A stretch of DNA of 64,000 nt from sequence record NZ_CP025192.1, one strand, 5' to 3'. The notes beneath the pieces are model-generated. The model saw only the letters and a list, made by a program, of their open reading frames with translations, was not told where the DNA came from and ran no database searches. The first letter of the stretch is position 1; each line of letters opens with the position of its first letter. The position numbers and the translations under genes are program-made. This DNA comes from a plasmid. Shown here piece after piece: positions 49,578 through 62,760 of this stretch.

Positions 49578-49584
49578 AGCTAGA

Positions 49585-49640: not shown

Positions 49641-49879
49641 TGCCTTGTCTGCGGTGGTCCGCAGTCTCCGTCTAGCCATTACGTCCGAACGATAACCGAG
49701 CCGGCCGCTACAGCGGCTCGGCGCATTCGTGGTTCCGGACTGCTGGGTAGGCGGCAAGGACATGAAGTCCCTCACAGCGATTGCCGTTTCCGTTCGCACC
49801 GCAGCTGACAATCCTCGAACCGGGCCGGATTGGAGGGCAACGGGTATGAGAGGACATCTGGGGGGCAGGGAAGATCCGC

Positions 49880-49990
49880 TACCGCTAGCGTCGGACGCGC
49901 GACAAGGGTTCGTCGCTGCGCTCCCGCGCCGGGGCAGGCCCCGGCCGCGCCCTTGTCCCGCCTCCGCCTCGCGGTCGCCGGGTGGAATCC
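49880..49990 (+). repeat. GC-rich structured repeat element, copy A (upstream of Toprim gene)
   Basis: core cgcgcGACAAGGGttcgtcgctgcgctcccgcgcc...gcgCCCTTGTCccgcc, same family as copies at 54245, 56180, 59290 and 62625. ATG of next gene about 20 bp downstream. Confidence 0.6.
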
Positions 49991-50009
49991 AGGCGAAGGA
50001 TTCCGGGCG

Positions 50010-50963
50010 ATGAGTGGGCATGACGAGGAACTGCAGCGGCTGCGCGAGGGGGTGAACTGTGCAGCCCTGCTTGAACGGTTGACGCCCCCATGGCGGCTGG
50101 ACAAGGCCGCCAGCACACGGGACTGCCTCAAGTACCGCCGGGGCAAGGGCGAGATCATCATCGTCAACCATGGCGGCCACGGCTGGTGGGACGCCGGGGG
50201 CACCGCCAAGGGCGACGTGTTCGGGCTGGTGCAGCACCTGAACCCCGGACTGAGCTTCGGCCATGTCCGCAAGCTGCTGCGGGAGATGATCGGGCTCCAG
50301 CCCAGCTTTCCCGAGCACCCTCGGACGGTCAGGGCCGCCGGCGACGGCATCCCAGCAGCGGATCGCTGGACCGCGGCCCGTCCTCTCCGCCCGGGCGGCA
50401 GGGCCTGGCGCTACCTGACGGAAGCCCGCCGGCTGCCGGGCCCGATCCTGCGGGCCGCCGTAGCGTCCGATGCGATCCGGGAGGGCGCCTATGGCACGGC
50501 CTGGTTCGCTCACCGCGACGAGTTGGGCGCCCTGACCGGCTTCGAGATGCGGGGCGCGGATTTCCGTGGCTTCGCCAAGGGGGCGGACAAGACCCTGTTC
50601 CGGCTGCCCGGTTGGATCCCGTCGCAGCCACGGCGCCCGAGCCGGCTGGCCGTGGCCGAGGCGCCGATCGACGCCCTCAGCCTCGCGGCCATCGAACGGT
50701 TGCGGGGCGACACCCTCTACGTGGCGACGTCCGGAGGCATGGGCCCCGGAACGGTACGCGGTCTCGCCCTCCTGCTGGCGGACCTGGCCACCTTCCCGGA
50801 TGCCCTGCTGGCCAGCGCGACCGACAACGATCCGGCTGGCGATCGCTATGCCGCCATGCTGGCCGAGCAGGCCGCGGCGGTCGGCGTGCGCTGCGAACGG
50901 CTGGCGCCGCCCGCGCCACTGAACGACTGGAACGACGCGCTGACACAGGGGAGGGGGGCATGA
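50010..50963 (+). CDS. DUF3991/Toprim-domain protein (conjugative-plasmid primase-like)
   Basis: 317 aa from ATG 50010. C-terminal Toprim-like acidic motifs (LAVAEAPIDALSLAAIE...ATDNDPAGDRYA). Typical leading-region gene. Confidence 0.6.
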   Translation: MSGHDEELQRLREGVNCAALLERLTPPWRLDKAASTRDCLKYRRGKGEIIIVNHGGHGWWDAGGTAKGDVFGLVQHLNPGLSFGHVRKLLREMIGLQPSFPEHPRTVRAAGDGIPAADRWTAARPLRPGGRAWRYLTEARRLPGPILRAAVASDAIREGAYGTAWFAHRDELGALTGFEMRGADFRGFAKGADKTLFRLPGWIPSQPRRPSRLAVAEAPIDALSLAAIERLRGDTLYVATSGGMGPGTVRGLALLLADLATFPDALLASATDNDPAGDRYAAMLAEQAAAVGVRCERLAPPAPLNDWNDALTQGRGA

Positions 50964-51298
50964 CCGCCTTCACGGAAACCCCGACGACACCTCTCAGCCA
51001 GGACGCGGTGGATCTTGCGCGAGCACTGCGCGCTGCCTTCCAGCGCATGCCCGAGCGCCGGCGACAACGCTGCACGGTCCCGCCCACCGGCGACGCCGGC
51101 ATCGACCGCCCCGTGCTGGTCGAGGCCTTCGACGGCTCGGACCACTACGCGGGGGTGATCGTCAGGGGAGAGCGTGACGACGCCGGCGCCTGGCTTCTGG
51201 ACGAGGCCTTCACTCTGCTCACCCTCGACCACGGTGACGGCGCCGACGCCGCGCTGGTGGCGTGCAACGGATGGAACTGCCATGTCGAGCGCCTCTGA
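50960..51298 (+). CDS. hypothetical protein
   Basis: 113-aa ORF, ATGA overlap with preceding gene stop. No motif recognised. Confidence 0.35.
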   Translation: MTAFTETPTTPLSQDAVDLARALRAAFQRMPERRRQRCTVPPTGDAGIDRPVLVEAFDGSDHYAGVIVRGERDDAGAWLLDEAFTLLTLDHGDGADAALVACNGWNCHVERL

Positions 51299-53324
51299 TC
51301 TCGCCGTGCAGGGCCGGCCGATCGCCGGTCTGACGCGCACCCAGGCCGAGGCGGCTTCGCTGACCGGAGCGGTGCTGGTGCTGGCCGGTGCCGGGACCGG
51401 CAAGACCAGCACCCTCACCGCCGGCGTCGCGCTGCGCATCGCCGAGCGTGGCATCCCGGCCGCCCGGATCCTGGCCGTGACCTTCACCAACAAGGCTGCC
51501 GGCGAGATGCGGGCGCGCATCGTCGCGCTGCTCGGGGGACAGTCCGCGCCGTCCTGGATCGGCACCTTCCACGGGCTCGGTGCCCGGCAGCTCCGGCTGG
51601 AGCCGGAGATGGCCGGTCTGCGGGCGGATTTCGATGTGCTCGATGCCGACGATGCCAGGCGACTGCTCAGGCGCGTCATGAAGGCGTCCGGGACGGAGGC
51701 GGGCGAGGACGAGATCATCGGCAAGGACCCCGTCAAGGCGATCGCCGGCCATATCGGGCGCTTCAAGGAGAACATGGTCACGCCCGCCCAGGCGGCGGTC
51801 CGGGTCGAGGCCATGCTGGCCGCCAGTCCGCTGGCCGATGCCTCTGGGCTGCGCGCCGCAGCGCGCCTCTACCCGGAGTATCAGCGCCGGCTGCGAGACG
51901 CCAATGCCGCCGACTTCGGGGACCTCCTGCTCTGGCCCGCCGTGGCGATGGCAGCCGACGAGGAGCGCCGCCGCCGCCTTGCCGGCCGCTTCTCCTGCCT
52001 GCTCGCCGACGAGTACCAGGACGTGAATGCCGTGCAGTACCGCTGGCTTCGGCTGATGGCGCAGGACCACGGTGAGATCTTCGCGGTGGGCGACGACGAT
52101 CAGGCGGTGTTCGGCTGGCGAGGCGCCGATATCGAGTACATCCGGCGCTTCACGCGGGACTTCCACGGCTCTGCCGTGGTCAAGCTGGAGGAGAACTTCC
52201 GCTCCACCGGGCATATCCTCGCCGCGGCCAATGCGGTGATCGCGCGCGACGACACTCGGCTCGGCAAGACGCTCCGACCCACGCGCGAGCAGGGCCAGCC
52301 GATCGAGGTGGTGAGGTTCCGCAACGACGAGGCCGAGGCCACCGGCCTCGCCTCGGAGATCCGCAGCCGCCACGCAGAAGGCGTACAATGGCAGGACATG
52401 GCCATCCTCTACCGCGCCAACCACCTCTCGCGCGGAATCGAAGACGAGTTGCTGCGGGCCAAGGTGCCCTACGTCCTCGTCGGCGACGTCGCCTTCTACC
52501 AGCGTGCCGAGATCAAGGATGCCCTCGCGCTGCTGCGCCTCGCCAACTCGCCAGACGACTGCCAGTCCGACGAGGCCTTCCGCCGTGCCTGCAACAACCC
52601 GCCCCGTGGCATCGGTCCGAAAGCCCTCGACCTGCTGGAGCGCGACGCGGAGTGGCGTGGATCGTCCCTGCTGGCGGCGTGCCACACCGCCGACTTGCCG
52701 CCCCGGGTCCGGGGCACGGCGGGAACCTTCGCCGATGCCATTCGAGGCGTCGCGGCCGATTCCACGGCCTCGGTCGCCGACCGGCTCTCCCAGCTGCTCG
52801 ACCGCACCGGCTATCGCCAGTGGCTCCGCGACAGCAGGGCCGAGACGGTCGAAGGGAGGCTGGAGAACCTCGCGGAGCTGGTGCAGCTGGCCAGTGGTTT
52901 CCATTCCGCGACCGATCTGCTGGAGCATGCCGCCCTGGCCAGCGCAGCTCCCGGCGAGGAGACCGAAGGGCGGGTGCAACTCCTCACCCTCCACCGGGCC
53001 AAGGGCCTGGAGTTCGGGCACGTCTTCCTGCCTGCCTGGAACGACACGATCTTTCCGAGCCAGTACGGTGATGCTGCCGAGGAACGGCGCCTGGCCTATG
53101 TGGCCCTGACCCGGGGCAAGGAGCGGGTGGCCGTCAGCTACGCCGAGTTCCGGCGCGGCTACGTCGATCCCTCGCCGTTCCTCGACGACATCCCGGCCGA
53201 CAACCGCCACGAGGGCTGGCTGCGGCCCGTGGCGCGGCGGCCAGCGCGGATCTCGCCCCGTCAGGCCGGTATGGACGCCCTCAACGAGATGGTCGCCGGC
53301 CTTCGGTCCCGGCCGACGGCATAG
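51282..53324 (+). CDS. UvrD/Rep/PcrA-family superfamily-1 DNA helicase
   Basis: Walker A AGAGTGKTSTL, motif Ia VTFTNKAAGEM, motif II (LADEYQDVN), VGDDDQAVFGWRGA, C-terminal LTLHRAKGLEFGHVFL and YVALTRGKE. About 680 aa. Confidence 0.85.
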   Translation: MSSASDLAVQGRPIAGLTRTQAEAASLTGAVLVLAGAGTGKTSTLTAGVALRIAERGIPAARILAVTFTNKAAGEMRARIVALLGGQSAPSWIGTFHGLGARQLRLEPEMAGLRADFDVLDADDARRLLRRVMKASGTEAGEDEIIGKDPVKAIAGHIGRFKENMVTPAQAAVRVEAMLAASPLADASGLRAAARLYPEYQRRLRDANAADFGDLLLWPAVAMAADEERRRRLAGRFSCLLADEYQDVNAVQYRWLRLMAQDHGEIFAVGDDDQAVFGWRGADIEYIRRFTRDFHGSAVVKLEENFRSTGHILAAANAVIARDDTRLGKTLRPTREQGQPIEVVRFRNDEAEATGLASEIRSRHAEGVQWQDMAILYRANHLSRGIEDELLRAKVPYVLVGDVAFYQRAEIKDALALLRLANSPDDCQSDEAFRRACNNPPRGIGPKALDLLERDAEWRGSSLLAACHTADLPPRVRGTAGTFADAIRGVAADSTASVADRLSQLLDRTGYRQWLRDSRAETVEGRLENLAELVQLASGFHSATDLLEHAALASAAPGEETEGRVQLLTLHRAKGLEFGHVFLPAWNDTIFPSQYGDAAEERRLAYVALTRGKERVAVSYAEFRRGYVDPSPFLDDIPADNRHEGWLRPVARRPARISPRQAGMDALNEMVAGLRSRPTA

Positions 53325-53363
53325 CAGGCCGCTGCTCGATCACATCCCCACAGGAAACCAGCG

Positions 53364-54209
53364 ATGCACACCGAAGCCTCCTTCATCCAGCGCCTCGAGC
53401 GCTACCGTTCCTCGAACACCGTGCCCCATGCGGTTTGGGTCGCGGACTGGCAAGCCGAGACCGATCGATGGAGCGATCCCGTGCTCCTGCCCCGCAGCAA
53501 CGTCGAGCCGGCCCTCGCGGCGGCCGAATTCGTGCAGAGCCTGGACCGGGAGATGGACCGTCAGGCCGCGGACAGGTTCTTCTCCGCCTGGGGCGGTCGC
53601 GTGGCATGGTTCTTCTGCCGCCGGGAGGGGGACGTCGCGGTCGCCTACCTTCGTCAGGCCGTGGGACATCATTCTCCCATCCTTATGGGCTGGACGGACA
53701 GGGTGGAGAACAAGATCCAGGACGTGGCGCACGCCCATCCGCTCCTGGCACGCTTCCTGGGCATGAGAGAGTACAGTTGGGACACCCCGGAGTACCGGAC
53801 CCTGTGTGCCGACCTCGGCCTCGATCCGGACTTCCAGCGGCCCTGTCCCCTGCCGGAGCATGCGGAGATGGGCGGCCAGCTGATCCGCTGGCTCGGCAAG
53901 CAACTCAACATCCTGGGTGTCATCGGGCCGGCGATGGACGATCCGCGGTGGGTGTACCTGAACTTGGGGAGGGACATGGTCACGGCCCTGCTACCCGAGG
54001 GCCGTGAACGCCCCTGGACCATCCGCGAGATCCTCGGGCGTCTCAAGGCGGTGCCCCCGCATGCCGTGCCATGCCGTGACGAGTTCCTGCGGGCCTTCGC
54101 AGACGTTCCTGCCGCCGAGCCGGGAGAGCGGCCGTGGCGGCCAGTTCCGCCGCCGAGCTTTTTCGCCCGTGTCGAGGCACTGCTGAGGCGTCCCGTGCAA
54201 GGGCGCTGA
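53364..54209 (+). CDS. hypothetical protein
   Basis: 281-aa ORF between the helicase and GHKL genes. No motif recognised. Confidence 0.4.
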   Translation: MHTEASFIQRLERYRSSNTVPHAVWVADWQAETDRWSDPVLLPRSNVEPALAAAEFVQSLDREMDRQAADRFFSAWGGRVAWFFCRREGDVAVAYLRQAVGHHSPILMGWTDRVENKIQDVAHAHPLLARFLGMREYSWDTPEYRTLCADLGLDPDFQRPCPLPEHAEMGGQLIRWLGKQLNILGVIGPAMDDPRWVYLNLGRDMVTALLPEGRERPWTIREILGRLKAVPPHAVPCRDEFLRAFADVPAAEPGERPWRPVPPPSFFARVEALLRRPVQGR

Positions 54210-54244
54210 GGAGCGTCGAAGGAAAGGGAGGTGGAGTGGCAGGA

Positions 54245-54380
54245 GGCCCTGCCACCCTCGCCCGGTGCGCAGCAAGGGTTCGTCGGCTGGTGCCTCCCGC
54301 CGCTGCGCGGCGCCCTTGTCTCGCCCCGGATCGGGGCGGCTGCGGGGAGGGGTCTTCAAGAAGAAGACCAGCAGGAGATT
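54245..54380 (+). repeat. GC-rich structured repeat element, copy B (upstream of GHKL ATPase gene)
   Basis: ctgccaccctcgcccggtgcgcAGCAAGGGttcgtcggctggtgcctcccgccgctgcgcggcgCCCTTGTCtcgccccgg, then gaagaagaccagcaggagattcc before GTG 54387. Confidence 0.6.
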
Positions 54381-54386
54381 CCACCC

Positions 54387-56144
54387 GTGCCCCACATCAC
54401 CCCCGTCTCACCTAACCCCTGTGTTCCCGTCACCCGGATCCGCGGCGCCCTGGGCGACAAGGTGCTGCGCAAGAGCCCGGAACTGTTCAACCAGGGTTTG
54501 CCTACCGTGCTGGCCGAGGTGCTTCAGAACGCCCGCCGCGCCGGCGCCACCCGCGTCGGGATCGAGCTCCTCGGCGAGGAGGGCCGCGCCACCCTGGCAG
54601 TGCGCGACGACGGCCATGGCATCACCGACATGGCCAGGCTGGTGACCTTCGGTGCTTCCGCCTGGGACGAGCGCACCGACCTCGTGGAGAACGCCGCCGG
54701 CATGGGGGTGTTCTCGCTGGCCTCGCGCGGCGTCACTGTGCGCTCGCGCGGGCAGCGGGTGACGCTGAGTCGGGCTGTGTTCTGCGGTGAGGCCGAGGCC
54801 GCCGTGCTACCCGACCCGGAGATGGTGGTGGGCACCGAGCTACTGTTCCCGGTGGTCGAGCGGGCGGTCGAGCGGGCGTGCCGCTTCTACCCCCTGCCGG
54901 TGACGCTGAACGGCCGGCCGCAGCCGCAGCCGGGTTTCCTGGAAGGCGCCGAGCACGTCGTGGAATGGCAGGGGCTGCGGCTGGGCGTCTTCCGGGAGGT
55001 CGGCCCCAAGGTGCTGGACCTGTTCGACAGGCACCGCGGCTGGGACAGGCGCCTCTACCTGAACTTCCATGGCCATGTCGTGGAGTGCGGAGCGGCTGTC
55101 GCGCTTGCCGAGGTTGGCGGACCGACCCGTAACGTCTTCGTGGACGTGGTCTCGGCGCCGGACCTGCGGCTGGTGCTCCCGGTGCGGAACGAACCGATCG
55201 ACAACGACTTCTTCCGAGCCATGCGGGCCCGCGCCGAGCGAGCGCTGCTGGAAGCCGTCGCTCTTGGAACCACGCACTCGTTGCCCTTCGACGATGCCCG
55301 TCGGGCAAAGGCGATGGGTATCGAGCTTCCGTCTGTGCGGATCCCGCTCACACCCTGGCGTCTGAACACCGACGTCACACGCCACCGTATCGAGGAGCTT
55401 CCCGGACCTGTCGTGCTTGGCACGCCGGGTACGGAGGTGCTGTTGACCGACGCACTCGGCATCGAACAATGCAGTGCAATGAACCTCGATCTGATTCTGC
55501 GCGGATGGTCGGACAGGCCGCGGGTGGTCGTGGCGGATTCCAGATTCGAGGGCTATCGCGAGTATGACACCCTGCGCGTGGTGCGCGCGATCTCGGCGGT
55601 TGCGACCGATGCCGAAGGATCTGACGAGGAATTTCCGGGCTCGACGATACGGTCCGGAAGCGCGCCGCAGGACGCCGAGTACCAGGTGGTCGAGACGCTT
55701 TCCGCACGCCTCATGGTAGCGGCGGATGCCAGGAAATGGGCACAGCCCGCCGTAATGCACGAGGCGGCGGTTCCGTTCTTCTTCACCGATGAGCCGTCGT
55801 TCGATGGCATGCCGAGCTTCGTGGTTGTGCGCGGCACCGAGCCCGGGGACCTTTCGGACGCCTTGGTCGAGGGGTTCTTCGCGGAAAACGAGGACGTCGG
55901 CAACGACAGCAGCGATCGCCAGCTGGAAGCCTTCTCGGCCGAGGCCCGCGACCTCTCTCGCACCCTCCTCCTGGACGGCGACGCGGCCACGGCGGCCCGC
56001 ATTGTCGAGCATCTGCGCAACATTCGCTGGGAGCTGCGTAGCCTTCAGAAGGGTAGCATCGAACTGCACATCGTGGAGGACCAGATCGGCAGCACGATCC
56101 GTATCGTCGGTCCAAGCGGCCGGGAAGTGACCGCGATCCTCTGA
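54387..56144 (+). CDS. GHKL-family (Bergerat-fold) ATPase domain protein
   Basis: N-box VLAEVLQNARRAG, G1 VRDDGHGI, G2-like GMGVFSLASRG. About 585 aa from GTG 54387. The start is placed after the repeat element, by analogy with the other copies. Confidence 0.6.
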   Translation: MPHITPVSPNPCVPVTRIRGALGDKVLRKSPELFNQGLPTVLAEVLQNARRAGATRVGIELLGEEGRATLAVRDDGHGITDMARLVTFGASAWDERTDLVENAAGMGVFSLASRGVTVRSRGQRVTLSRAVFCGEAEAAVLPDPEMVVGTELLFPVVERAVERACRFYPLPVTLNGRPQPQPGFLEGAEHVVEWQGLRLGVFREVGPKVLDLFDRHRGWDRRLYLNFHGHVVECGAAVALAEVGGPTRNVFVDVVSAPDLRLVLPVRNEPIDNDFFRAMRARAERALLEAVALGTTHSLPFDDARRAKAMGIELPSVRIPLTPWRLNTDVTRHRIEELPGPVVLGTPGTEVLLTDALGIEQCSAMNLDLILRGWSDRPRVVVADSRFEGYREYDTLRVVRAISAVATDAEGSDEEFPGSTIRSGSAPQDAEYQVVETLSARLMVAADARKWAQPAVMHEAAVPFFFTDEPSFDGMPSFVVVRGTEPGDLSDALVEGFFAENEDVGNDSSDRQLEAFSAEARDLSRTLLLDGDAATAARIVEHLRNIRWELRSLQKGSIELHIVEDQIGSTIRIVGPSGREVTAIL

Positions 56145-56179
56145 GGAGGACGGGGAAGGGCGAATGAGCAGGACGGGGG

Positions 56180-56320
56180 AGGGCGCTGCCACCCTCTCCC
56201 GGCGCGCGGCAAGGGTTCGTCGGCTCACGCCTCCCGCCGCTCCGCGGCGCCCTTGCCCCACCCCGGCAGGGGCGGCCGGCGGGCTGGGTCTTCGGGAAGA
56301 AGACTCAGCAGAAGGATGAG
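56180..56320 (+). repeat. GC-rich structured repeat element, copy C
   Basis: gcgctgccaccctctcccggcgcgcGGCAAGGGttcgtcggctcacgcctcccgccgctccgcggcgCCCTTGCCccaccccgg...gaagaagactcagcagaaggatgagatcc before ATG 56325. Confidence 0.6.
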
Positions 56321-56324
56321 ATCC

Positions 56325-56498
56325 ATGGATCTCCACGAACGGCTCGCCAGGCGCCAGGGACGTCACGAGGACATGAAGGCCATCGCCGGCCTCGCCCTGA
56401 TCGTCTGCATCCTCCTTGCAGGCGCCATGCTGCCTGGCTTCCTGGCAGATCACGCCTCCACTGTCCGTGTGCCTGCCCAGCAGGAGGCCCGCCGATGA
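56325..56498 (+). CDS. small single-TM membrane protein
   Basis: 57 aa MDLHERLARRQGRHEDMKAIAGLALIVCILLAGAMLPGFLADH. ATGA overlap with next ORF. Confidence 0.4.
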   Translation: MDLHERLARRQGRHEDMKAIAGLALIVCILLAGAMLPGFLADHASTVRVPAQQEARR

Positions 56499-56842: not shown

Positions 56843-56916
56843 GACGCCCTGCCTGCCTGAGGGAGCAACACGTCCATCCGGTTGCCCGATCCATCACGAT
56901 CCACAGGATCCGAGAC

Positions 56917-57507: not shown

Positions 57508-57510
57508 GCC

Positions 57511-58293: not shown

Positions 58294-58495
58294 GGGGGCG
58301 GCCGCCGACGGTCCGATGAAGGGAAGAGTCGAGAAAGAGGTGTGAACCGGATACCGCGGAACGGGGCGGGAGGGGTGCCGCACCCCGTCCTCCGCCGCAA
58401 GGGCAAGGGCCTGGCGGCCCGCCGCGATGCGGCGCCCCTGCCCCGGAGGAACGGCGCCGCGGCGGCCTGGGAGTTGTTCGGAAAGGAACATCCCC

Positions 58496-58831
58496 ATGGA
58501 AATCCGCCGCCTCGCTCCCCGGGCACCCGCCGCGCTCTCCCGATCGCTTCCACTGGCCGATGCCGGCGAGGCGCTCGCCTGCACCCGCTGCGGCAGTGCC
58601 TACCAGGGCGACCCCACCCTGCTGGTGGCCTGCCCGGTGTGCTTCGTCGCGCCGGGCGTTCCCTGCTGCAAGCCCGATCATGGCCGGGTCCGGCAGTCGC
58701 ACCTCTCCCGAAGCCGCGATGCCCTGGCGGCAGGGCGCATGCCGGCCTGCGGCGCCCTGACCTGGGACGGGCTGCACGCCTTCGCGGTGCCGGTGCCGGC
58801 CGCGCCTCGACACGTCTCCAGCTCGATCTGA
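58496..58831 (+). CDS. zinc-ribbon hypothetical protein
   Basis: 111 aa from ATG 58496. CTRCG...CPVCF...CC Cys pairs. Confidence 0.35.
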   Translation: MEIRRLAPRAPAALSRSLPLADAGEALACTRCGSAYQGDPTLLVACPVCFVAPGVPCCKPDHGRVRQSHLSRSRDALAAGRMPACGALTWDGLHAFAVPVPAAPRHVSSSI

Positions 58832-58841
58832 GGGCGATCCG

Positions 58842-59177
58842 ATGACCCATGTTCGCCGCTTCCTCGACCTGTCCACCGCCCACCTCGCGCTGGAGGACCG
58901 CACCTGCCTGATCGGCGCGGCCCAGGCCGGGGTGCGCGGCGAGGTGTGCTGCGGCGCGATGCCCTATGGCTGGTTCGTCTACGCCCATGACGAGCGCCCG
59001 GACATCGCCGATACGCTCTGGGCCCTCATGGTCGAAGCCCGCCGACAGGGTTGCGAGTACCTGCTGTTCGACGCCGACGGCCCGGCCCTCCCGGATTTCC
59101 CTTGCTTCGACTGGGATGAGCCTTCGGCATCGCCCTTCGTCGCCGAGGTGGCGCGACGCCCGGACGGATCACCCTGA
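58842..59177 (+). CDS. hypothetical protein
   Basis: 111 aa (MTHVRRFLDLSTAHLALEDRTCLIGAA...YGWFVYAHDE...YLLFDADGP). Resembles small conserved proteins of conjugative-element leading regions. Confidence 0.4.
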   Translation: MTHVRRFLDLSTAHLALEDRTCLIGAAQAGVRGEVCCGAMPYGWFVYAHDERPDIADTLWALMVEARRQGCEYLLFDADGPALPDFPCFDWDEPSASPFVAEVARRPDGSP

Positions 59178-59289
59178 GAATCCGGACCGAACGTCCGAGC
59201 GCCGGACATCGAGTACATCTGGAGATCAGGAAAGCGGGCAACCACGAAATCGGGAAAGTAGGAGATCAGGAGAGCGGGAGAGGAGAGGC

Positions 59290-59410
59290 CGTTCCGCACC
59301 GGTCCGGCCGCCGCAAGGGTTCGTCGCTGCGCTCCCGCGCTCCGCGCGCCCTTGCCCCGGCCCGCCCGGATGCGGGGCTGGGGAGGTGTTCCGAGAAGAT
59401 GAAAGGGAAC
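59290..59410 (+). repeat. GC-rich structured repeat element, copy D (upstream of ardC)
   Basis: ccgCAAGGGttcgtcgctgcgctcccgcgctccgcgcgCCCTTGccccggcccgcccgg...gaagatgaaagggaacaccg before ATG 59415. Confidence 0.6.
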
Positions 59411-59414
59411 ACCG

Positions 59415-60380
59415 ATGGCTCAGCCTCGCCGTCAGACCGCCGATCGCCCGGCTCCCCGCGACCATTACGCCGAGATCACCAGCCAGATCGTGGAGGCCCT
59501 GGAGGCCGGCACGGTGCCGTGGCGCCGGCCCTGGGACCAGGACAAGGCCGGTGCCGGTCCGCTGTCGCCCCGCAACGGGGTCACCGGGCGCCGCTACCAC
59601 GGGATCAATGTGCTGCTGCTGGGCATGACCGGCCTGGCCTTCGCCGGCACGGATCCCCGCTGGCTCACCTACAGGCAGGCCGAGGAGAAGGGGTGGCAGG
59701 TCCGCCGCGGCGAGCGCGGCAGCCGCGTCTTCTTCTTCCGCAAGCTGACCCTGCGGGACGGCGACGCCGCACCCGAGGCGGGAGGCGAGGGCACCCGCAC
59801 CGTGCCGGTGCTTCGTGCGTACACGGTGTTCCACGCGAGCCAGGTGGAGGGCATCCCGAGCTTCGAGGCCCCGTCCACCGAGAAGGCCTCCTGGCGCACG
59901 CCCGAGGCGGCCGAGACGATCATGCGCAACAGCGGCGTGGCGTTCCGGGAAGGAGGCGACCGCGCCTACTACTGGCCGGCGACGGACCACATCCAGATGC
60001 CGCCGCGCGCGGCCTTCGCCACGCCGGAGGGCTACTGCGCCACGGGCCTGCACGAGCTGGCTCACGCCTCCGGCGCGAAGCACCGCCTCGACCGTGACCT
60101 GACGGGTCGCTTCGGCAGCCACGCCTATGCCCAGGAGGAGCTCCGTGCCGAGCTGACATCCTGCTTCGTCGGCGCCGAGCTGGGCCTGCCCTGCGACATC
60201 CCGAACCACGCCAGCTACGTCTCATCGTGGCTCAGGACGCTTCGGCAGGACAAGCGCGAGATCTTCCGCGCCGCGGCCGAGGCCCAGCGCATGGCCGACT
60301 ACCTGCTCGGCTTCCATCCCGGGCACGCCCGACGGGCGGCCGAGGAGGCGCGGCGCGACGAGGCCGCGGAGGCGGCGTGA
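59415..60380 (+). CDS. ardC: ArdC-like antirestriction protein (ssDNA-binding N-domain + zincin-like metalloprotease domain)
   Basis: N-domain IVEALEAGTVPWRRPW...GRRYHGINVLLL...WLTYRQAEEKGWQVRRGERGS is ArdC-like. C-domain HELAHAS (HExxH) zincin motif. 321 aa. Confidence 0.8.
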   Translation: MAQPRRQTADRPAPRDHYAEITSQIVEALEAGTVPWRRPWDQDKAGAGPLSPRNGVTGRRYHGINVLLLGMTGLAFAGTDPRWLTYRQAEEKGWQVRRGERGSRVFFFRKLTLRDGDAAPEAGGEGTRTVPVLRAYTVFHASQVEGIPSFEAPSTEKASWRTPEAAETIMRNSGVAFREGGDRAYYWPATDHIQMPPRAAFATPEGYCATGLHELAHASGAKHRLDRDLTGRFGSHAYAQEELRAELTSCFVGAELGLPCDIPNHASYVSSWLRTLRQDKREIFRAAAEAQRMADYLLGFHPGHARRAAEEARRDEAAEAA

Positions 60381-61390
60381 GCGCCGCCCTGCTGCCCGGC
60401 GCGGCGGCGCTGGCCCCGGAGCTGCGCTCCTACGACCACGTCATCCTGTTCACCTCGGGGGGCAAGGACGCCACGGCCTGCCTGGTCGAGCTGCTGGAGC
60501 GCGGCGTGCCGCCCGCGCGCATCGAGCTGCACCACCACGAGGTGGATGGCCGCGGCGAGGCCTCCATGGACTGGCCCGTGACCGGCGCCTACGTCGCGGC
60601 ACAGGCGGCGGCGTTCGGGCTGCCGCTCTACCGCTCCTGGCGCGAGGGCGGCTTCGAGCGGGAGATGCTGCGCCAGGATGCACCGACGGCGCCGATCCTG
60701 TTCGAGACCCCTCATGGCCTCATGAGGACAGGAGGGGCCGGACCGCGCAACACCCGGCTGCTGTTCCCGCAGGTCTCGGCCGACCTGTCGGTGCGCTGGT
60801 GGTGCTCGGCGGCCCTCAAGATCGGCGTCGGCGCGGCCGCCATCGCCGGCCAGGCCCGCTTCCTCGGGCGCCGGACCCTGGTCGTGACCGGCGAGCGGGC
60901 GCAGGAGAGCCCGGCCCGGGCGCGCTACGCCATCTTCGAGCCGCACCGTACCGACACGCGCGGCGGCTCGCGCCGGTCCCGCCACGTCGATCACTGGCGA
61001 CCGGTCCATGGCTGGGACGAGGTGCGGGTCTGGGACGCGCTGCGGCGTCACGGCGTGCGGCCGCACCCGGCCTACGAGCTGGGCTGGTCGCGGCTGTCCT
61101 GCATGTCCTGCATCTTCGGGTCGGCCTCGCAGTGGGCGACGATCCGCCTGATCGCGCCGGTCCTGTTCGAGCGCATCGCGGCCTACGAGGAGCGCTTCGG
61201 CCGCACCATCCAGCGCGCCCGCTCCGTTCGCGCGCTGGCCGATCTCGGCCGCCCCTATCCCGCCGCCCTCGCGCGACCCGATCTCGTCTCCCTCGCCCTG
61301 AGCACGCTCTGGGACCTGCCGATCCTCGGCCCGCCCGCAGGCTGGACGCATCCGGCCGGCGCCTTCGGCGAGGCCGCCGGCCCGACCTGA
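60377..61390 (+). CDS. PAPS-reductase-family PP-loop ATP pyrophosphatase-like protein
   Basis: N-terminal PP-loop ILFTSGGKDATAC. GTG start forming GTGA overlap with ardC stop, preceded by GGAGG. 337 aa. Confidence 0.6.
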   Translation: MSAALLPGAAALAPELRSYDHVILFTSGGKDATACLVELLERGVPPARIELHHHEVDGRGEASMDWPVTGAYVAAQAAAFGLPLYRSWREGGFEREMLRQDAPTAPILFETPHGLMRTGGAGPRNTRLLFPQVSADLSVRWWCSAALKIGVGAAAIAGQARFLGRRTLVVTGERAQESPARARYAIFEPHRTDTRGGSRRSRHVDHWRPVHGWDEVRVWDALRRHGVRPHPAYELGWSRLSCMSCIFGSASQWATIRLIAPVLFERIAAYEERFGRTIQRARSVRALADLGRPYPAALARPDLVSLALSTLWDLPILGPPAGWTHPAGAFGEAAGPT

Positions 61391-61459
61391 ACCCTGCACG
61401 GGCGGCCGCACCCGGCTCCGCGCGATGCCACCACCCCGACCGAACACAAAGGAGGCCCC

Positions 61460-62074
61460 ATGGGCTGGCTCGTTTCCGATCGCCCGCTCGTCCGCGAGAC
61501 GCCGGCAGAGCACCTGACACGCGACTACACGACCGACGACGAGCACGGCCGCACCGAGGTCCTGGCCGCATCGCAGGTCGGCCGCGCGGTCTACATGGCG
61601 GTACGCCGGACGGAGAAGGCCGGTCCGCGTGCCGGCCGTCCCTATGTCTTCGCCGCCGTGATCCTGGTGTTCAACAACGCCCGGGACGGCTTCGGCCGCA
61701 AGGACATGGACGAGACCGCTGGCCCCTGCGAGGTGGCCTGCCCACCCCGCATCATGGCGCTCCTTTCCCCGGTCGAGGAGCTGCCATCGCCCGGCTACGC
61801 GGCCGACTGGCGCGCGCGGGTGGACTCAGCCCGGCTGGAGCGGCGCGGGGTCGCCGCCAGCAGGAAGCATCTGCTCCCGGGTCAGCGGGTGCGGCTGACC
61901 GAGCCCCTGAGTTTCTGCAAGGGCGCCGTGGTCGCCACCGAGTTCGAGGTGGTGCCGACGCCCGCCGGACGGCGAGGCCCGATCTTCCGGCCGGTCGGGC
62001 ATGCTTTCCTGTGCCGCCTGCCCTCGCGCCTCCTGACCGTGGCCATGACGGTCCCGGCCCCGGCGGTGACGTGA
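61460..62074 (+). CDS. hypothetical protein
   Basis: 204-aa ORF. No motif recognised. Confidence 0.4.
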   Translation: MGWLVSDRPLVRETPAEHLTRDYTTDDEHGRTEVLAASQVGRAVYMAVRRTEKAGPRAGRPYVFAAVILVFNNARDGFGRKDMDETAGPCEVACPPRIMALLSPVEELPSPGYAADWRARVDSARLERRGVAASRKHLLPGQRVRLTEPLSFCKGAVVATEFEVVPTPAGRRGPIFRPVGHAFLCRLPSRLLTVAMTVPAPAVT

Positions 62075-62537
62075 TCCCCAGGGAGGATGCACCGGACCCG
62101 GTGCCGGGACCGGGGCCGCATCCCCTCGACAGCTGCGAGGACCGCTGTCGCCTGCGGCTGACGCTGCGCGACGGCCGCGTGATCGAAGGCCTGCACAATG
62201 CCGTCCCCCCGAGGTGCGGACCGACCCGTTCTCGGTCCCGAACATGCTCGCCGCGCTGCTCGGGCGGGGCCTCAAGGCACAAATCACCCGATTGGGTGAC
62301 CCGTCGCATCAGCGCGGCCACATCCAGGTGGAGATGCCCGTGAAGGGCCGGGCGCGCTTCGTGCTGATCGGGGAGCCACGCCACGGCACGATCGGCTGGC
62401 GGGCGGTCTGGGACGGCAACGACAGCAAGCCCGGCCTTCGGCGGCGGCGACTGTCCGAGGCGACCGAGGCCTACCGCCGGATGCTCGCGGCCATGCGGGA
62501 GGGGTGCCGCTCCGTCCAACCGGACCTGTTCGGCTGA
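62071..62537 (+). CDS. hypothetical protein with apparent +1/-1 frame break at a C6 run (about 62205-62212)
   Basis: GTG at 62071 (GTGA overlap with previous stop) reads VIPREDAPDPVPGPGPHPLDSCEDRCRLRLTLRDGRVIEGLHNAVPP. After the ccccccg run the coding signal continues in ORF 62214-62537 (MRTDPFSVPNML...). Confidence 0.35.
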
Positions 62538-62554
62538 ACCATACCCTCCTGTGC

Positions 62555-62597
62555 TCATGGGCGCCTGTCCTCATGAACACATGAGGGAATGAGGAAA
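62555..62597. promoter_or_regulatory. second copy of TGTCCTCATG-N4-CATGAGG(G)AAT dyad operator
   Basis: ctgtgctcatgggcgccTGTCCTCATGaacaCATGAGGGAATgagg. Shares both half-sites with 49612-49640. Confidence 0.5.
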
Positions 62598-62624
62598 GGA
62601 GGGGAGACGGGGCAGGACGAGGAG

Positions 62625-62760
62625 ATGGGCGCTGCCACCGCGCTCCGGGGCGCGGCAAGGGTGCGTCGGCTACCGCCTCCCGCCGCTGCGCGGCGCCCTT
62701 GCCCCGCCCCGGACCGGGCGGCCGGCTCGGAAGTGTCTTGAGAGACAGGATACGAGGAGA
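62625..62760 (+). repeat. GC-rich structured repeat element, copy E
   Basis: gggcgctgccaccgcgctccggggcgcGGCAAGGGtgcgtcggctaccgcctcccgccgctgcgcggcgCCCTTGCCccgccccgg...caggatacgaggagagcagggc before ATG 62768. Confidence 0.6.

What the first reader, a model, noticed from the sequence alone, without database searches (positions are those of the whole stretch)
49880..62760. Five copies of a 110-130-bp GC-rich element with a conserved stem, each just upstream of consecutive plasmid-establishment genes (candidate Frpo-like leading-region promoters / structured leaders)
The five same-orientation copies, their sequences and the gene each precedes are given in the repeat features at 49880, 54245, 56180, 59290 and 62625. 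Each copy ends 20-70 bp before the start codon of a gene in the putative leading-region cluster: Toprim/DUF3991, GHKL ATPase, a small membrane protein operon, ardC, and a small ORF operon. Each carries the arm (A/G)(G/A)CAAGGG, then a spacer of about 35-45 nt, then CCCTTG(C/T)C. Copy A has GACAAGGG...CCCTTGTC whereas copies C, D and E have GGCAAGGG...CCCTTGCC. That is a compensatory change preserving base pairing, which argues for selection on a secondary structure rather than a protein-coding or simple operator sequence. Each copy is followed by a purine-rich AAGAAGA/GGAGA tract and then the start codon. Leading regions of conjugative plasmids are known to use single-strand-initiated hairpin promoters (Frpo/ssi) to express anti-defence genes (ArdC-type, SSB, PsiB) early after entry. 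These repeats are shorter and unrelated in sequence to F Frpo, so they may be an undescribed family doing the same job, or a shared riboregulatory leader.
Basis: partly seen in the sequence, partly recalled or inferred. Interest (0 to 1): 0.78.

Follow-up and report, generated by a model that had tools for sequence, protein, structure and literature searches.

The report
Single-strand DNA hairpins preceding establishment genes
Six copies of a ~100-base GC-rich hairpin sit just upstream of successive anti-restriction and establishment operons of a Roseomonas plasmid; their mismatches and loops suit folding in the DNA strand that, in related plasmids, enters a recipient cell during conjugation, so they are good but untested candidates for a new class of single-stranded-DNA promoter.

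Summary
There are six same-orientation copies, not five, all within 49.9-62.7 kb. Each ends 28-45 nt before the start codon of an operon in a plasmid establishment island (DUF3991-Toprim, GHKL ATPase, small membrane protein, small Cys-rich protein, ArdC, small ORF).

The conserved stem is a 25-30 bp imperfect hairpin (P1) capped by one or two small hairpins. A covariance model finds 79 distinct copies in Acetobacteraceae, Rhizobiales and other genomes. BLAST finds one subtype in 476 Rhizobiales plasmids, including pRi1724.

Three strand-specific signals show that P1 is selected to fold in the strand complementary to the mRNA:
- A.C exceeds G.T among isolated mismatches, 23 to 4.
- The other mismatches are G.G or G.A on that strand.
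- Triloops read GNA on that strand, 34 to 1.

In pRi1724 and an Ochrobactrum plasmid that strand is the transferred strand. A small hairpin next to the ribosome-binding site shows the opposite bias, so it is RNA.

Best reading: a new family of Frpo/ssp-like single-strand initiation elements. Promoter activity is unproven and no canonical -10 box is present. There is no Rfam match and no detectable homology to the F-plasmid leading region that carries Frpo.

The parts
49876..49980 (+). Copy A, hairpin P1 with cap. The structure is inferred to form on the minus strand.
   Evidence: Covariance model R1, 57.3 bits. Sequence.
49984..50004 (+). Copy A, small hairpin P4 (GGAATCC-AGGCGAA-GGATTCC), 5 nt before the ATG at 50010.
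   Evidence: Sequence; hairpin finder.
50010..50963 (+). DUF3991 + Toprim protein gene, downstream of copy A.
   Evidence: Pfam DUF3991 at 5.5e-19 and Toprim_2 at 4.4e-11.
51174..53324 (+). UvrD-like helicase gene inside the island. The ORF is as listed; the true start is probably near 51282.
   Evidence: ORF list; annotation of the 97.5%-identical plasmid.
54246..54345 (+). Copy B, hairpin P1 with cap.
   Evidence: R1, 80.2 bits. Sequence.
54351..54369 (+). Copy B, hairpin P4 (GGTCTTC-AAGAA-GAAGACC). AGGAG follows at 54373 and GTG at 54387.
   Evidence: Sequence.
54387..56144 (+). GHKL-type ATPase gene.
   Evidence: Pfam HATPase_c_3.
56183..56281 (+). Copy C, hairpin P1 with cap.
   Evidence: R1, 81.7 bits. 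Sequence.
56283..56309 (+). Copy C, hairpin P4 (GCTGGGTCTTC-GGGAA-GAAGACTCAGC), containing one G.U pair.
56316..56498 (+). Small membrane-protein gene and the operon that follows it.
   Evidence: cluster c5.
58372..58468 (+). Its 3' arm reads CCCCTG.
   Evidence: R1, 35.7 bits. Sequence.
58470..58495 (+). Sixth copy, hairpin P4 (GGAGTTGTTC-GGAAAG-GAACATCCCC), immediately followed by the ATG at 58496.
58496..58831 (+). Small Cys-rich protein gene (111 aa).
   Evidence: cluster c6. No Pfam match.
59288..59381 (+). Copy D, hairpin P1 with cap.
   Evidence: R1, 61.2 bits. MFE z-score -3.8.
59385..59413 (+). Copy D, hairpin P4 (GGTGTTCC-13 nt-GGAACACC). It overlaps the Shine-Dalgarno sequence; the ATG is at 59415.
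59415..60380 (+). ArdC-type gene (ArdcN + zincin metallopeptidase domains).
   Evidence: Pfam 3.6e-35 and 8.9e-49.
62629..62728 (+). Copy E, hairpin P1 with cap.
   Evidence: R1, 74.9 bits. Sequence.
62733..62753 (+). Copy E, hairpin P4 (GTGTCTTG-AGAGA-CAGGATAC), containing two G.U pairs.
62768..63034 (+). Small ORF (88 aa). The large helicase/methylase gene follows it.

Best explanation
Each element is a ~100-nt module whose main part, P1, is a 25-30 bp imperfect GC-rich hairpin.

Anatomy of P1:
- The basal helix is conserved: (T)GCCGCA(T) pairs with (A)TGCGGC(A).
- The middle helix is variable and covaries.
- A conserved 2x2 mismatch follows.
- The upper helix is conserved and 7 bp long: GCAAGGG pairs with CCCTTGC.
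- The cap is variable, with one or two mini-hairpins.

The hairpin is built to form in the strand complementary to the mRNA. That strand is the template strand of the downstream genes. In related conjugative plasmids it is the strand transferred into the recipient.

The most likely function is a single-strand initiation signal of the Frpo/ssp kind. When the plasmid enters a new cell as single-stranded DNA, each hairpin would offer a duplex landing site. Its TTGC box sits in the upper helix, and a mismatched A lies at the open fork 25-27 nt further on. RNA synthesis would start from there and run into the adjacent operon, so that anti-restriction and establishment genes are expressed before the complementary strand is made. 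The same RNA could prime complementary-strand synthesis. The very stable hairpins may also stall that synthesis until a helicase removes them.

The small hairpin P4 between P1 and the ribosome-binding site belongs to the mRNA 5' end.

Shown here: the family, its structure and covariation, its strand bias, its position, and the orientation of homologous islands relative to oriT.
Inferred: that the window's island is a leading region, and that the hairpins initiate transcription or priming.
For: Structure:
- P1 has covariation. Eight of 15 modelled pairs carry double changes, and 93.7% of cells are paired against 37-55% when the partner is slid by 1-3 columns.

Strand bias, tested three ways on 79 distinct copies:
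(a) Isolated 1x1 mismatches were taken from folds made with G.U forbidden. In P1, A.C (which is G.T on the minus strand) numbers 23, in 21 sequence contexts, against 4 G.T. In the adjoining P4 the ratio is reversed, 18 G.T to 3 A.C. Opposite biases a few nucleotides apart exclude mutational bias.
(b) With the cap replaced by GAAA, P1 is more stable on the minus strand in 69 of 79 copies (RNA parameters) and 75 of 79 (DNA parameters), by about 4 kcal/mol. The result holds for the 50 non-Roseomonas copies. The remaining mismatches on the + strand are C.C, T.C, C.T and T.T (244) against 24 purine-purine. On the minus strand these become G.G and G.A.
(c) Triloops of the cap hairpin P3 read TNC on the + strand in 34 copies. 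That is GNA closed by C-G on the minus strand, a very stable DNA mini-hairpin by my own knowledge. GNA on the + strand occurs once. The TGC loop is kept over seven different stems.

Control: in the F plasmid, the intergenic regions that hold the validated ssDNA promoters fold better on the T strand by about 7 kcal/mol. The region between psiB and the hok gene, which holds the hok/sok-type flm locus, folds better on the sense strand.

Context:
- All six window copies lie within 49.9-62.7 kb on the + strand, 28-45 nt before start codons.
- Across taxa the downstream genes are DUF3991-Toprim (12), ArdC (10), ParB-N (8), GHKL (4) and DUF1419 (4), among others.
- Related Roseomonas plasmids carry 5-8 copies in the same island, which continues to ssb and is flanked by imuB/dnaE2-type error-prone polymerase genes.
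- In pRi1724 and Ochrobactrum CP061776 the homologous island is transcribed towards oriT. The oriT minus strand carries an inverted repeat followed by TAATTGCGCCCT, which matches the RSF1010 nick motif TAAGTGCGCCCT as I recall it. That makes the minus strand both the T strand and the template of the island genes.

Precedent:
- In pESBL all six leading-region operons are preceded by hairpin ssDNA promoters of three unrelated classes (PMC12672017).
- F ssp2 is also a replication roadblock resolved by UvrD (bioRxiv 10.64898/2026.01.09.698686). The island here encodes its own UvrD-like helicase.
Against: - No canonical sigma-70 -10 hexamer is present. After the conserved mismatched A there is no T at +4 (4 of 60 copies), and the simple promoter scan finds nothing in or near the elements. 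The same scan also misses the validated F ssp2 and Frpo2 promoters, so this argument is weak.
- The stem is about 100 nt, against about 300 nt for Frpo.
- The window and most Roseomonas relatives have no recognised relaxase. MOB-suite types them 'non-mobilizable'. Whether these plasmids still transfer is unknown.
- The position next to the upper helix (T after CAAGGG, G before CCCTTG) is T.G in 51 of 80 copies, which would be a sense-strand wobble if it pairs.
- In copy D the basal mismatches are U.G on the sense strand (read).
- CCTCATG-N4-CATGAGG palindromes, which look like operator sites, lie upstream of copies A and E. If they mark conventional promoters, the hairpins are also transcribed as RNA in the resident plasmid.
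- T-strand identity rests on a motif match to RSF1010 recalled from memory.
Confidence: 0.55

Rival explanations
1. The hairpin is a single-strand priming site (ssi) only. It forms on the incoming T strand and is recognised by a primase, either the island's own DUF3991-Toprim protein or host DnaG. It starts discontinuous complementary-strand synthesis, as in phage G4 oric or RSF1010 ssiA/ssiB. It does not serve as a promoter for the downstream genes.
For: - The same minus-strand DNA evidence applies as for the best explanation.
- A pyrimidine-rich tract of at least 30 nt lies immediately 3' of the hairpin on the minus strand in nearly all copies. Primases and tail-initiated RNA polymerase start on such templates.
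- A Toprim-domain gene is the commonest neighbour, and in Rhizobiales it is flanked by two copies.
- No -10 box is present.
Against: - A priming site has no need for a fixed 28-45 nt distance to a start codon, for strict co-orientation with every operon, or for a coupled mRNA-level hairpin next to the ribosome-binding site.
- Six to eight sites within 13-27 kb is a high density for priming alone.
- In F, the promoter and primer functions reside in the same element (PMC9849209; bioRxiv 10.64898/2026.01.09.698686). The two readings therefore do not exclude each other.
Confidence: 0.15
2. The element is a sense-strand RNA element. It would be a structured 5' leader or intercistronic hairpin in a long polycistronic transcript. 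One possibility is an RNase III processing or stabiliser site, as between phage T7 early genes. Another is a binding site for a plasmid-encoded RNA-binding regulator.
For: - The hairpin sits in short gaps between co-directional genes: 37-39 nt after the upstream stop codon for copies B and C, which leaves no room for a conventional promoter.
- The sense-strand fold is still very stable, about -45 kcal/mol for P1 alone.
- P4 carries sense-strand G.U pairs and overlaps the Shine-Dalgarno sequence in some copies.
- The T.G opposition next to the upper helix is a sense-strand wobble in 51 of 80 copies.
- Palindromes that look like operator sites lie upstream of copies A and E. If they mark promoters, those copies are transcribed.
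Against: - All three strand tests on P1 and its cap favour the antisense strand: A.C to G.T 23 to 4; minus strand more stable in 69-75 of 79 copies; GNA to TNC triloops 34 to 1.
- On the sense strand the mismatches are the most destabilising kinds, C.C, C.U and A.C.
- No Rfam family matches, even at E <= 10.
Confidence: 0.15
3. The hairpin is mainly a structural roadblock or protective structure on the entering single strand. It would stall complementary-strand synthesis or exclude SSB and nucleases. Initiation would occur elsewhere.
For: - The minus-strand hairpins are very stable, about -29 kcal/mol for P1 alone with DNA parameters.
- A UvrD-like helicase is encoded in the island.
- F ssp2 stalls complementary-strand synthesis at its stem, and UvrD resolves the stall (bioRxiv 10.64898/2026.01.09.698686).
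Against: - It does not explain the fixed position before each start codon.
- It does not explain the conserved sequence boxes, TTGCGGCG and TGCGG(C/T)A, which are conserved beyond what pairing requires.
- In F, the roadblock is itself a promoter.
Confidence: 0.06
4. The element is a folded-ssDNA recombination site of the integron attC type. It would allow element-plus-gene cassettes to be shuffled among plasmids.
For: - The anatomy resembles attC: an imperfect hairpin with conserved boxes, fixed mismatches, a variable terminal structure and a strand bias.
- Gene content between elements differs among related plasmids.
- Tyrosine recombinase genes are present elsewhere in the window.
Against: - The one window/L001 indel I examined has breakpoints at the end of the upstream gene and inside the DUF4326 gene, not at the elements.
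- The element keeps a fixed distance to the downstream start codon, not to the upstream stop codon.
- No R-box motif (GTTRRRY) is visible in the aligned copies, and no integrase gene is annotated within or beside the island.
- Gene order across the island is conserved.
Confidence: 0.04
5. The element is a double-stranded operator for a global repressor, or a dispersed REP/MITE-type repeat with no specific role.
For: - It occurs in multiple copies with conserved sequence boxes.
- Plasmid R388 uses repeated operator sites before its establishment operons (my own knowledge).
Against: - Compensatory changes in the variable middle helix show selection on pairing, not on a duplex sequence.
- With filters off, the model finds no copy in the other 50 kb of the window. 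In the 49 kb beyond the island in NZ_CP024583.1, the default-filter search finds only the copy at the boundary with the island.
- All copies have one orientation and lie next to gene starts.
Confidence: 0.03

Closest known systems
Frpo1/Frpo2 of F and ssi1-3 of ColIb-P9/pESBL (class 1 single-stranded-DNA promoters)
   Same: - Several homologous copies per plasmid.
- Each copy lies upstream of a leading-region operon such as ssb, psiB or ardA, co-oriented with genes whose template is the T strand.
- Each is an imperfect hairpin that folds better on the T strand (control).
- A TTG-containing box lies in the upper stem, and unpaired bases lie where melting must start.
   Different: - No detectable homology: model R1 scores at most 15.9 bits, E = 0.46, in the F leading region.
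- About 100 nt instead of about 300.
- 80% G+C.
- No recognisable -10 hexamer.
- The stem ends in an open fork flanked by pyrimidine tracts.
- The hosts are Alphaproteobacteria with MOBQ/Ti-type transfer systems.
- Activity is untested.
ssp2 (class 2) and ssp3 (class 3) ssDNA promoters of F/pESBL (Wen et al. 2025, PMC12672017; Fraikin et al. 2026 preprint)
   Same: - They show that unrelated hairpin classes can do the Frpo job before klcA/ardB, ardA and methylase genes.
- ssp2 is GC-rich (68.6%) and is also a roadblock resolved by UvrD.
- The F ssp2 T strand carries CCCTTGCAT in its promoter arm; the elements here carry CCCTTGCGG. This is a lead, not a test.
   Different: - The hairpins differ in sequence and length.
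- -35 and -10 boxes are reported for ssp2 and ssp3, and their start sites were mapped by 5'-RACE. Neither is available here.
EGeRS1 and conAn (EGeRS2) regulatory repeats before establishment operons of pLS20-family plasmids (PMC8708921, PMC6294495)
   Same: Repeated structured sequences lie upstream of several establishment or anti-restriction operons on one plasmid.
   Different: - They are several hundred nt long and found in Gram-positive hosts.
- In pLS20 the transferred strand is the non-template strand, so those elements act as RNA or on dsDNA (conAn is processive antitermination).
- Here the strand bias points to the template strand.
Integron attC sites
   Same: They are folded single-strand hairpins with conserved boxes, fixed mismatches, a variable terminal structure, strand selectivity and one orientation along a gene array.
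   Different: - attC lies 3' of its cassette ORF and is cut by IntI at the R box.
- Here the element is tied to the downstream start codon, no integrase gene is annotated beside the island, and the indel examined is not bounded by elements.
Single-strand initiation and origin signals: RSF1010 ssiA/ssiB, phage G4 oric, and sso of rolling-circle plasmids
   Same: They are hairpins on a single-stranded template that recruit a primase or RNA polymerase. GNA-type DNA mini-hairpins are known at such origins (my own knowledge).
   Different: Those signals occur once or twice per replicon, at origins. They are not found before every operon and are not coupled to a ribosome-binding-site hairpin.

Membership tests
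Frpo/ssi class 1 ssDNA promoters | Sequence homology to Frpo/ssi | tested here: not met
   Covariance model R1, run with filters off on the F plasmid leading region 50-68 kb, gives a best hit of 15.9 bits, E = 0.46. No Rfam family matches.
ssDNA promoters as a functional kind (classes 1-3) | Located in the leading region, upstream of leading genes whose template strand is the transferred strand | tested here: inconclusive
   Met in relatives. In pRi1724 and Ochrobactrum CP061776 the homologous island runs towards oriT. The RSF1010-like nick motif, preceded by an inverted repeat, is on the strand complementary to the island genes. The window itself has no relaxase or oriT, and most Roseomonas relatives are typed non-mobilizable.
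ssDNA promoters as a functional kind (classes 1-3) | Stable imperfect stem-loop formed by the T (template) strand | tested here: met
   A.C to G.T is 23 to 4. The minus strand is more stable in 69-75 of 79 copies. GNA triloops on the minus strand number 34 against 1 on the plus strand. The F plasmid control behaves as expected.
ssDNA promoters as a functional kind (classes 1-3) | -35 and -10 boxes reconstituted in the stem | tested here: inconclusive
   TTGC(G/C)GCG is invariant in the upper helix, and a mismatched A lies at index 25-27. There is no T at A+4 and no hit in the consensus scan. The same scan also finds nothing in the validated F ssp2 and Frpo2 promoters.
ssDNA promoters as a functional kind (classes 1-3) | Transcription from single-stranded DNA, with transient induction in new transconjugants | not testable with these tools
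   Needs in vitro transcription, or 5'-RACE or RNA-seq during mating.
Integron attC | R''/R' boxes (RYYYAAC / GTTRRRY), an adjacent IntI gene, and cassette boundaries at the site | tested here: not met
   No such boxes are visible in the aligned copies. No integrase gene is annotated in or beside the island. The breakpoints of the window/L001 indel lie outside the elements.
REP/BIME/MITE dispersed repeats | Genome-wide dispersal with no tie to gene starts | tested here: not met
   Six copies lie within 13 kb and none in the other 50 kb of the window. In the 49 kb beyond the island of NZ_CP024583.1, the only copy is at the boundary with the island. All copies are co-oriented with a downstream ORF.
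Described RNA families (Rfam 15) | A match to a curated covariance model | tested here: not met
   The window has no hit at gathering score. At E <= 10, no hit overlaps any element.
RNase III-type intercistronic processing hairpins (T7 early-region type) | A long helix selected to form in the sense RNA | tested here: not met
   The helix exists, but its non-Watson-Crick positions favour the antisense strand. Cleavage itself cannot be tested here.
Primase-dependent ssi signals (G4 / RSF1010 type) | Specific primer synthesis on the folded single strand | not testable with these tools
   Only circumstantial evidence is available: the template-strand hairpin, the 3' pyrimidine tract and the neighbouring Toprim gene.

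The most novel reading that the evidence does not exclude
These hairpins would be a fourth, previously undescribed class of single-stranded-DNA promoter/initiator. The class would be widespread in alphaproteobacterial conjugative plasmids and ICEs, from Roseomonas skin isolates to Ri/Ti-type and symbiosis plasmids. It would work as a 'fork-junction' promoter: a duplex TTGC box, a mismatched adenine at the end of the stem, and permanently open pyrimidine-rich flanks in place of a -10 hexamer. It might depend on the island's own Toprim and UvrD-like proteins. It would be coupled to a 5'-terminal mRNA hairpin.
Probability: 0.4. Interest if true: 0.8.

Novelty: new variant of a known kind. Interest (0 to 1): 0.62.

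Why it matters
Single-stranded-DNA promoters explain how plasmids express anti-defence genes within minutes of entering a cell. So far they have been demonstrated only in enterobacterial IncF and IncI plasmids, where three classes are known.

A compact, easily recognised hairpin family in Alphaproteobacteria would extend the principle to MOBQ/Ti-type systems. These include Agrobacterium, Rhizobium and Sinorhizobium plasmids that are genetically tractable. The family would also serve as a sequence marker for leading regions and for unannotated anti-defence genes in this large group.

It would pose a mechanistic question too: how does initiation work without a -10 box in 80% G+C DNA?

Finally, the strand-asymmetry tests used here (A.C versus G.T, mismatch class, GNA triloops) are a general computational way to tell ssDNA elements from RNA elements.

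Tried and rejected
- Rfam at gathering score and at E <= 10: nothing on the elements.
- Sigma-70 and terminator consensus scan of 49-64 kb: no promoter-like site in or near any element, and no terminators between the operons. The scan proved uninformative, because it also misses the validated F ssDNA promoters.
- Search for a -10 hexamer or a T at A+4 on the minus-strand arm, anchored both on TTG and on the conserved A: none found.
- Whole-element MFE z-scores against dinucleotide shuffles: weak for four of five copies (-0.6 to -2.3), because any 80% G+C sequence folds well. I abandoned this in favour of covariation and strand tests.
- The MAFFT/RNAalifold consensus captured only 15 pairs, because internal loops vary in length. 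The outer helices were analysed by arm-to-arm alignment instead.
- A crude hairpin finder for P4 picked up many spurious long stems and gave equal wobble counts. The G.U-forbidden fold was used for the count instead.
- BLAST of a Roseomonas copy against PLSDB reaches only Roseomonas. The wider distribution needed the pattern scan plus the covariance model.
- A Ti-type nick motif is absent from the window.
- The attC-like cassette idea was rejected on the indel breakpoints.
- The covariance-model hit at 19615-19706 (E = 0.18) was inspected and dismissed.

Full report
**1. The observation**

The motif CAAGGG-N(20-50)-CCCTTG occurs five times in the window, at 49903, 54273, 56210, 59314 and 62656. 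All five are on the + strand. Dinucleotide shuffles expect 0.21, and none of 100 reached five. The direct-repeat finder groups the same sites.

I built covariance model R1 from 26 copies taken from the window and four related plasmids. It recovers the five copies at 57-82 bits. It also finds a sixth at 58372-58468 (35.7 bits), whose 3' arm reads CCCCTG. With all filters off, these six are the only significant hits in the 64 kb. The next hit scores 21 bits (E = 0.18) and is not a copy on inspection.

Each modelled core (P1-P3) ends 28-45 nt before a start codon. The downstream genes are:
- DUF3991+Toprim, GHKL ATPase and ArdC-type (ArdcN + zincin), all confirmed by Pfam;
- a 57-60 aa membrane protein, a 111-aa Cys-rich protein and an 88-aa ORF.

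**2. Where the window comes from**

The region is 97.5% identical to Roseomonas sp. plasmid NZ_CP024583.1 and 99-100% identical to parts of R. mucosa plasmids.

In that plasmid the island carries, in order:
- ParA, DUF3991-Toprim, a UvrD-like helicase and a GHKL ATPase;
- XF1762, DUF4326, ArdC and a PAPS-reductase-like protein;
- a 5-kb helicase/methylase, a ParB-N protein, a C5 methyltransferase and ssb.

Y-family and error-prone DNA polymerase genes (imuB/dnaE2 type) lie upstream of it. This is the gene content described for plasmid leading-region anti-defence islands, which are often flanked by umu-like genes (PMC11541004). Related Roseomonas plasmids carry 5-8 copies of the element in the same island, always in gene orientation.

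**3. Anatomy**

Reading the sense strand, the element contains the following parts:
- a basal helix, (C)TGCCGCA(T) paired with (A)TGCGGC(A)G;
- a variable middle helix;
- a nearly constant 2x2 C.C/C.C internal loop;
- the 7-bp helix GCAAGGG/CCCTTGC;
- a cap of variable design, made of one extended hairpin or two mini-hairpins (P2 and P3).

Upstream lies a tract of about 40-60 nt that is strongly purine-rich on the sense strand. Two to eight nt downstream comes a small hairpin, P4, of the type GGTCTTC-GAGAA-GAAGACC or GGTGTTCC-N13-GGAACACC. It abuts or overlaps the Shine-Dalgarno sequence.

Covariation is clear. On 81 distinct sequences aligned to the model, 93.7% of cells pair. Eight of 15 pairs show changes on both sides, in 128 cells, and no shuffle out of 500 reaches these values. 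Sliding the 3' partner by 1-3 columns drops pairing to 37-55%. That alignment was fitted to the model, which inflates the numbers somewhat. An independent MAFFT/RNAalifold analysis of 26 copies shows the same compensatory pairs.

**4. Distribution**

A pattern scan of one genome per species, followed by the model, gave 79 distinct copies. They come from:
- Acetobacteraceae: Roseomonas, Rhodopila, Acidiphilium, Acetobacter, Gluconobacter and many MAGs;
- Hyphomicrobiales: Rhodoblastus, Neorhizobium, Rhizobium, Shinella, Hoeflea and Xanthobacteraceae;
- a Caulobacteraceae MAG, a Burkholderiales MAG and two Acidobacteria MAGs.

Several copies lie on contigs of 0.1-1.3 Mb, so ICE-borne copies are likely.

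BLAST of the Rhizobium subtype finds 476 plasmid records in Agrobacterium, Rhizobium, Sinorhizobium, Bradyrhizobium and other genera. Of these, 351 are typed conjugative. The listed best matches lie at the DUF3991-Toprim gene. Model searches of two of these plasmids place one copy upstream of that gene and one at its 3' end.

Downstream genes across all 79 copies cluster as follows:
- DUF3991-Toprim, 12;
- ArdC, 10;
- ParB-N, 8;
- GHKL, 4;
- DUF1419, 4;
- small membrane proteins, DUF4326, a HerA-like ATPase and others.

**5. Which strand folds?**

This is the key result. A perfect Watson-Crick helix is equally stable on both strands, so only the non-Watson-Crick positions and the loops carry strand information. 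I used three tests.

(a) I folded each copy with G.U forbidden, which is unbiased between the strands. I then classified isolated 1x1 mismatches that are flanked by Watson-Crick pairs.
- In P1, A.C (a G.T wobble on the minus strand) occurs 23 times, in 21 distinct sequence contexts. G.T occurs 4 times.
- In the P4 region the ratio is reversed: 18 G.T (15 contexts) against 3 A.C.
- Both kinds arise from Watson-Crick pairs by single transitions that preserve purine and G+C content. Opposite biases a few nucleotides apart cannot be mutational.

(b) The other P1 mismatches on the sense strand are C.C 161, T.C 45, C.T 22 and T.T 16, against 24 purine-purine. On the minus strand they become G.G, G.A and A.A, which are the least destabilising mismatches in DNA.
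- With the cap replaced by GAAA, P1 is more stable on the minus strand in 69 of 79 copies (RNA parameters) and 75 of 79 (DNA parameters), by about 4 kcal/mol.
- The result holds in the 50 non-Roseomonas copies. Whole elements behave the same way.

(c) The triloop of cap hairpin P3 reads TNC on the sense strand in 34 copies: TGC 27, TTC 4, TCC 3. It is closed by C-G, and the stems below it covary (seven different stems carry TGC).
- On the minus strand this is C-GNA-G, known as an exceptionally stable DNA mini-hairpin (my own knowledge; Hirao and colleagues).
- GNA on the sense strand occurs once.

As a control I used the F plasmid. The intergenic regions that hold the validated ssDNA promoters are those upstream of the antirestriction gene, of ssb, and of the DUF932 gene at locus 14.4 kb. 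I assigned ssp2, Frpo2 and Frpo1 to them by position. All three fold better on the T strand by about 7 kcal/mol. The region between psiB and the hok gene, which holds the hok/sok-type flm locus, folds better on the sense strand.

Conclusion: P1 and its cap are selected to fold in the strand complementary to the mRNA, most plausibly as DNA. P4 is selected in the mRNA. The 42 nt downstream of the core fold better on the sense strand in 64 of 76 copies, but base composition contributes to that figure.

**6. Is that strand the transferred strand?**

The window has no relaxase, so I used relatives that have a complete transfer system.

In pRi1724 and in Ochrobactrum plasmid CP061776 the homologous island is on the + strand. 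It runs DUF3991-Toprim, DUF1419, helicase/methylase, ParB-N, ArdC, DUF736. It is followed by traG-traD-traC on the minus strand, then the traC-traA intergenic region, then traA-F-B-H on the + strand.

In that intergenic region the minus strand reads CGTCGC-ATCA-GCGACG, an inverted repeat, followed by TATAATTGCGCCCTTGG. This matches the RSF1010/R1162 nick region (inverted repeat, then ..GGTAAGTGCGCCCTCCC) at 11 of 12 positions of TAAGTGCGCCCT. The RSF1010 sequence is recalled from my own knowledge.

In MOBQ systems the inverted repeat lies 5' of the nick on the nicked strand, and the DNA 3' of the nick enters first. The minus strand is therefore the T strand, the island is on the leading side, and its genes use the T strand as template. 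This is the arrangement seen in F and reported as general by Samuel et al. (PMC11541004). The element copies in pRi1724 and pSmeSM11b are on the + strand, like the genes. For the Roseomonas plasmids this geometry is inferred by homology only.

**7. Mechanism**

The position is fixed and close to each start codon. The orientation is strict. The element is coupled to an mRNA-level hairpin. Together these argue for a role in expression of the downstream operon rather than priming alone.

On the minus strand, the arm that would act as the non-template strand reads CCC-TTGC(G/C)GCG, then about 11 nt, then (A)TGCGG(C/T)A.
- TTG is invariant in all 79 copies.
- The final A lies 25-27 nt after the first T of TTG, and it faces G, A or C rather than T.
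- Beyond it the stem ends. Both flanks are pyrimidine-rich on this strand, so they cannot pair with each other.

I therefore propose a fork-junction-like promoter: a duplex -35-like box, a spacer helix, an unpaired A where -11 would lie, and a permanently open region. Counting 11 nt from that position in copy C puts the start at the first G of P4. P4 would then be a 5'-terminal stabilising hairpin. This is inference only.

A -10 hexamer is not recognisable. T at A+4 occurs in 4 of 60 copies, and the consensus scan finds nothing. The same scan also misses the validated F promoters.

An alternative start, in the pyrimidine tract 3' of the hairpin, is equally possible. This would resemble initiation on a tailed template, or by a primase.

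The hairpins are very stable, and the island encodes a UvrD-like helicase. In F, ssp2 stalls complementary-strand synthesis until UvrD removes it, which prolongs early expression (bioRxiv 10.64898/2026.01.09.698686). That is a plausible additional role here.

**8. Rivals**

- An RNA leader or RNase III-type site is disfavoured by the strand tests. It is not excluded as a secondary role, since the hairpins are probably transcribed in the resident plasmid. Palindromes of the form CCTCATG-N4-CATGAGG, which look like operator sites, lie upstream of copies A and E.
- A pure priming site and a pure roadblock remain possible.
- An attC-like recombination site is unlikely. The 728-bp versus 46-bp indel between L001 and the window has breakpoints at the end of the upstream gene and inside the DUF4326 gene, not in the elements.
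- A dsDNA operator or REP-type repeat is excluded by the covariation and the confinement to the island.

**9. Comparison with known systems, and novelty**

Hairpin ssDNA promoters before every leading-region operon are established for pESBL and F, where three unrelated classes are known (PMC12672017, PMC9849209). Repeated structured regulators before establishment operons are also known in pLS20-type plasmids, but those act on the other strand (PMC8708921).

The present family shares the logic and the strand, but differs in these ways:
- It has no detectable homology to the F leading region that carries Frpo and no Rfam match.
- It is three times shorter.
- It lacks a -10 box.
- It occurs in Alphaproteobacteria.

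My literature searches, which covered leading regions, Frpo, ssDNA promoters, DUF3991 and ArdC, found no description of it. I rate it a new variant of a known kind. Function is unproven.

**10. Verdict**

- The structure, the family and the template-strand bias are solid. My confidence is about 0.8.
- A single-strand initiation function, as promoter and/or primer: about 0.55.
- The specific fork-junction promoter model: lower.
- Interest: 0.62.

Noticed in passing
window 49582-49602, 49611-49631, 60707-60727, 62566-62586: There are four copies of an 18-bp palindrome, CCTCATG-N4-CATGAGG. Two lie upstream of copy A, one about 45 nt upstream of copy E, and one near the end of the PAPS-reductase-like gene. 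They look like operator sites for a dimeric repressor controlling conventional promoters of the island.
   Followed up: partly
L128 10050-10095 (pRi1724 oriT) and L129 37835-37880: The Ti/Ri-type oriT nick region is itself framed by CAAGGGCG...CGCCCTTG, the same 6-8 nt arms as the upper helix of the element. It also contains CGTCGCTG, which is found in the cap of many Roseomonas copies. This could reflect a shared binding protein, common descent or coincidence. I estimate a chance of about 5e-4 for the 6-nt arms in a 250-bp region, judged post hoc.
   Followed up: partly
L130 6343-6755 (F plasmid, upstream of the antirestriction gene): The T strand of the F ssp2 region carries CCCTTGCAT in the arm that holds its promoter boxes, and GCGCAAGGG in the other arm. 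The elements here carry CCCTTGCGG and GCAAGGG. The Frpo region has GCAAGGGG and CCCCTTAC. This may be a convergent '-35 in a GC clamp' design.
   Followed up: no
L127 21238-37850 (pRi1724 island): Other intergenic regions of the Rhizobium island form long hairpins unrelated to this family. One example is about 170 nt long, before ArdC at 33092-33296, and is followed by a P4-like hairpin before the ATG. Nine of 13 intergenic regions fold better on the T strand. Several classes of candidate ssDNA elements may therefore coexist, as in pESBL.
   Followed up: partly
L127 26563-26675 (+), L129 17273-17384 (+), L002 25226-25301 (-): Known sRNA families are found inside related islands. They lie just downstream of the 5-kb helicase/methylase gene: ar15 (117 and 101 bits) and suhB/mmgR (57 bits), which belong to the same clan. 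The corresponding part of the window lies beyond 64000.
   Followed up: no
window, about 40-60 nt upstream of each copy (e.g. 59205-59287), and the same position in all related loci: These tracts are strongly purine-rich on the sense strand and often contain repeated GGGAAAG or CAGGAG units. On the putative T strand they are pyrimidine-rich. The feature is conserved across genera, is not explained, and could be an initiation zone or an SSB-loading tract.
   Followed up: partly
window 51174-53324; L001 5947-10744: The island encodes its own UvrD-like helicase, and in relatives it is preceded by Y-family and error-prone DNA polymerase genes (imuB/dnaE2 type). This fits published reports that UvrD resolves ssDNA-promoter hairpins and that umu-like genes flank anti-defence islands.
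   Followed up: no
L126 20041-20130, L127 20041-20129: In Rhizobiales the copy downstream of DUF3991-Toprim overlaps the annotated 3' end of that CDS. Either the protein's C-terminal tail is encoded by the hairpin or the stop codon is mis-annotated.
   Followed up: no
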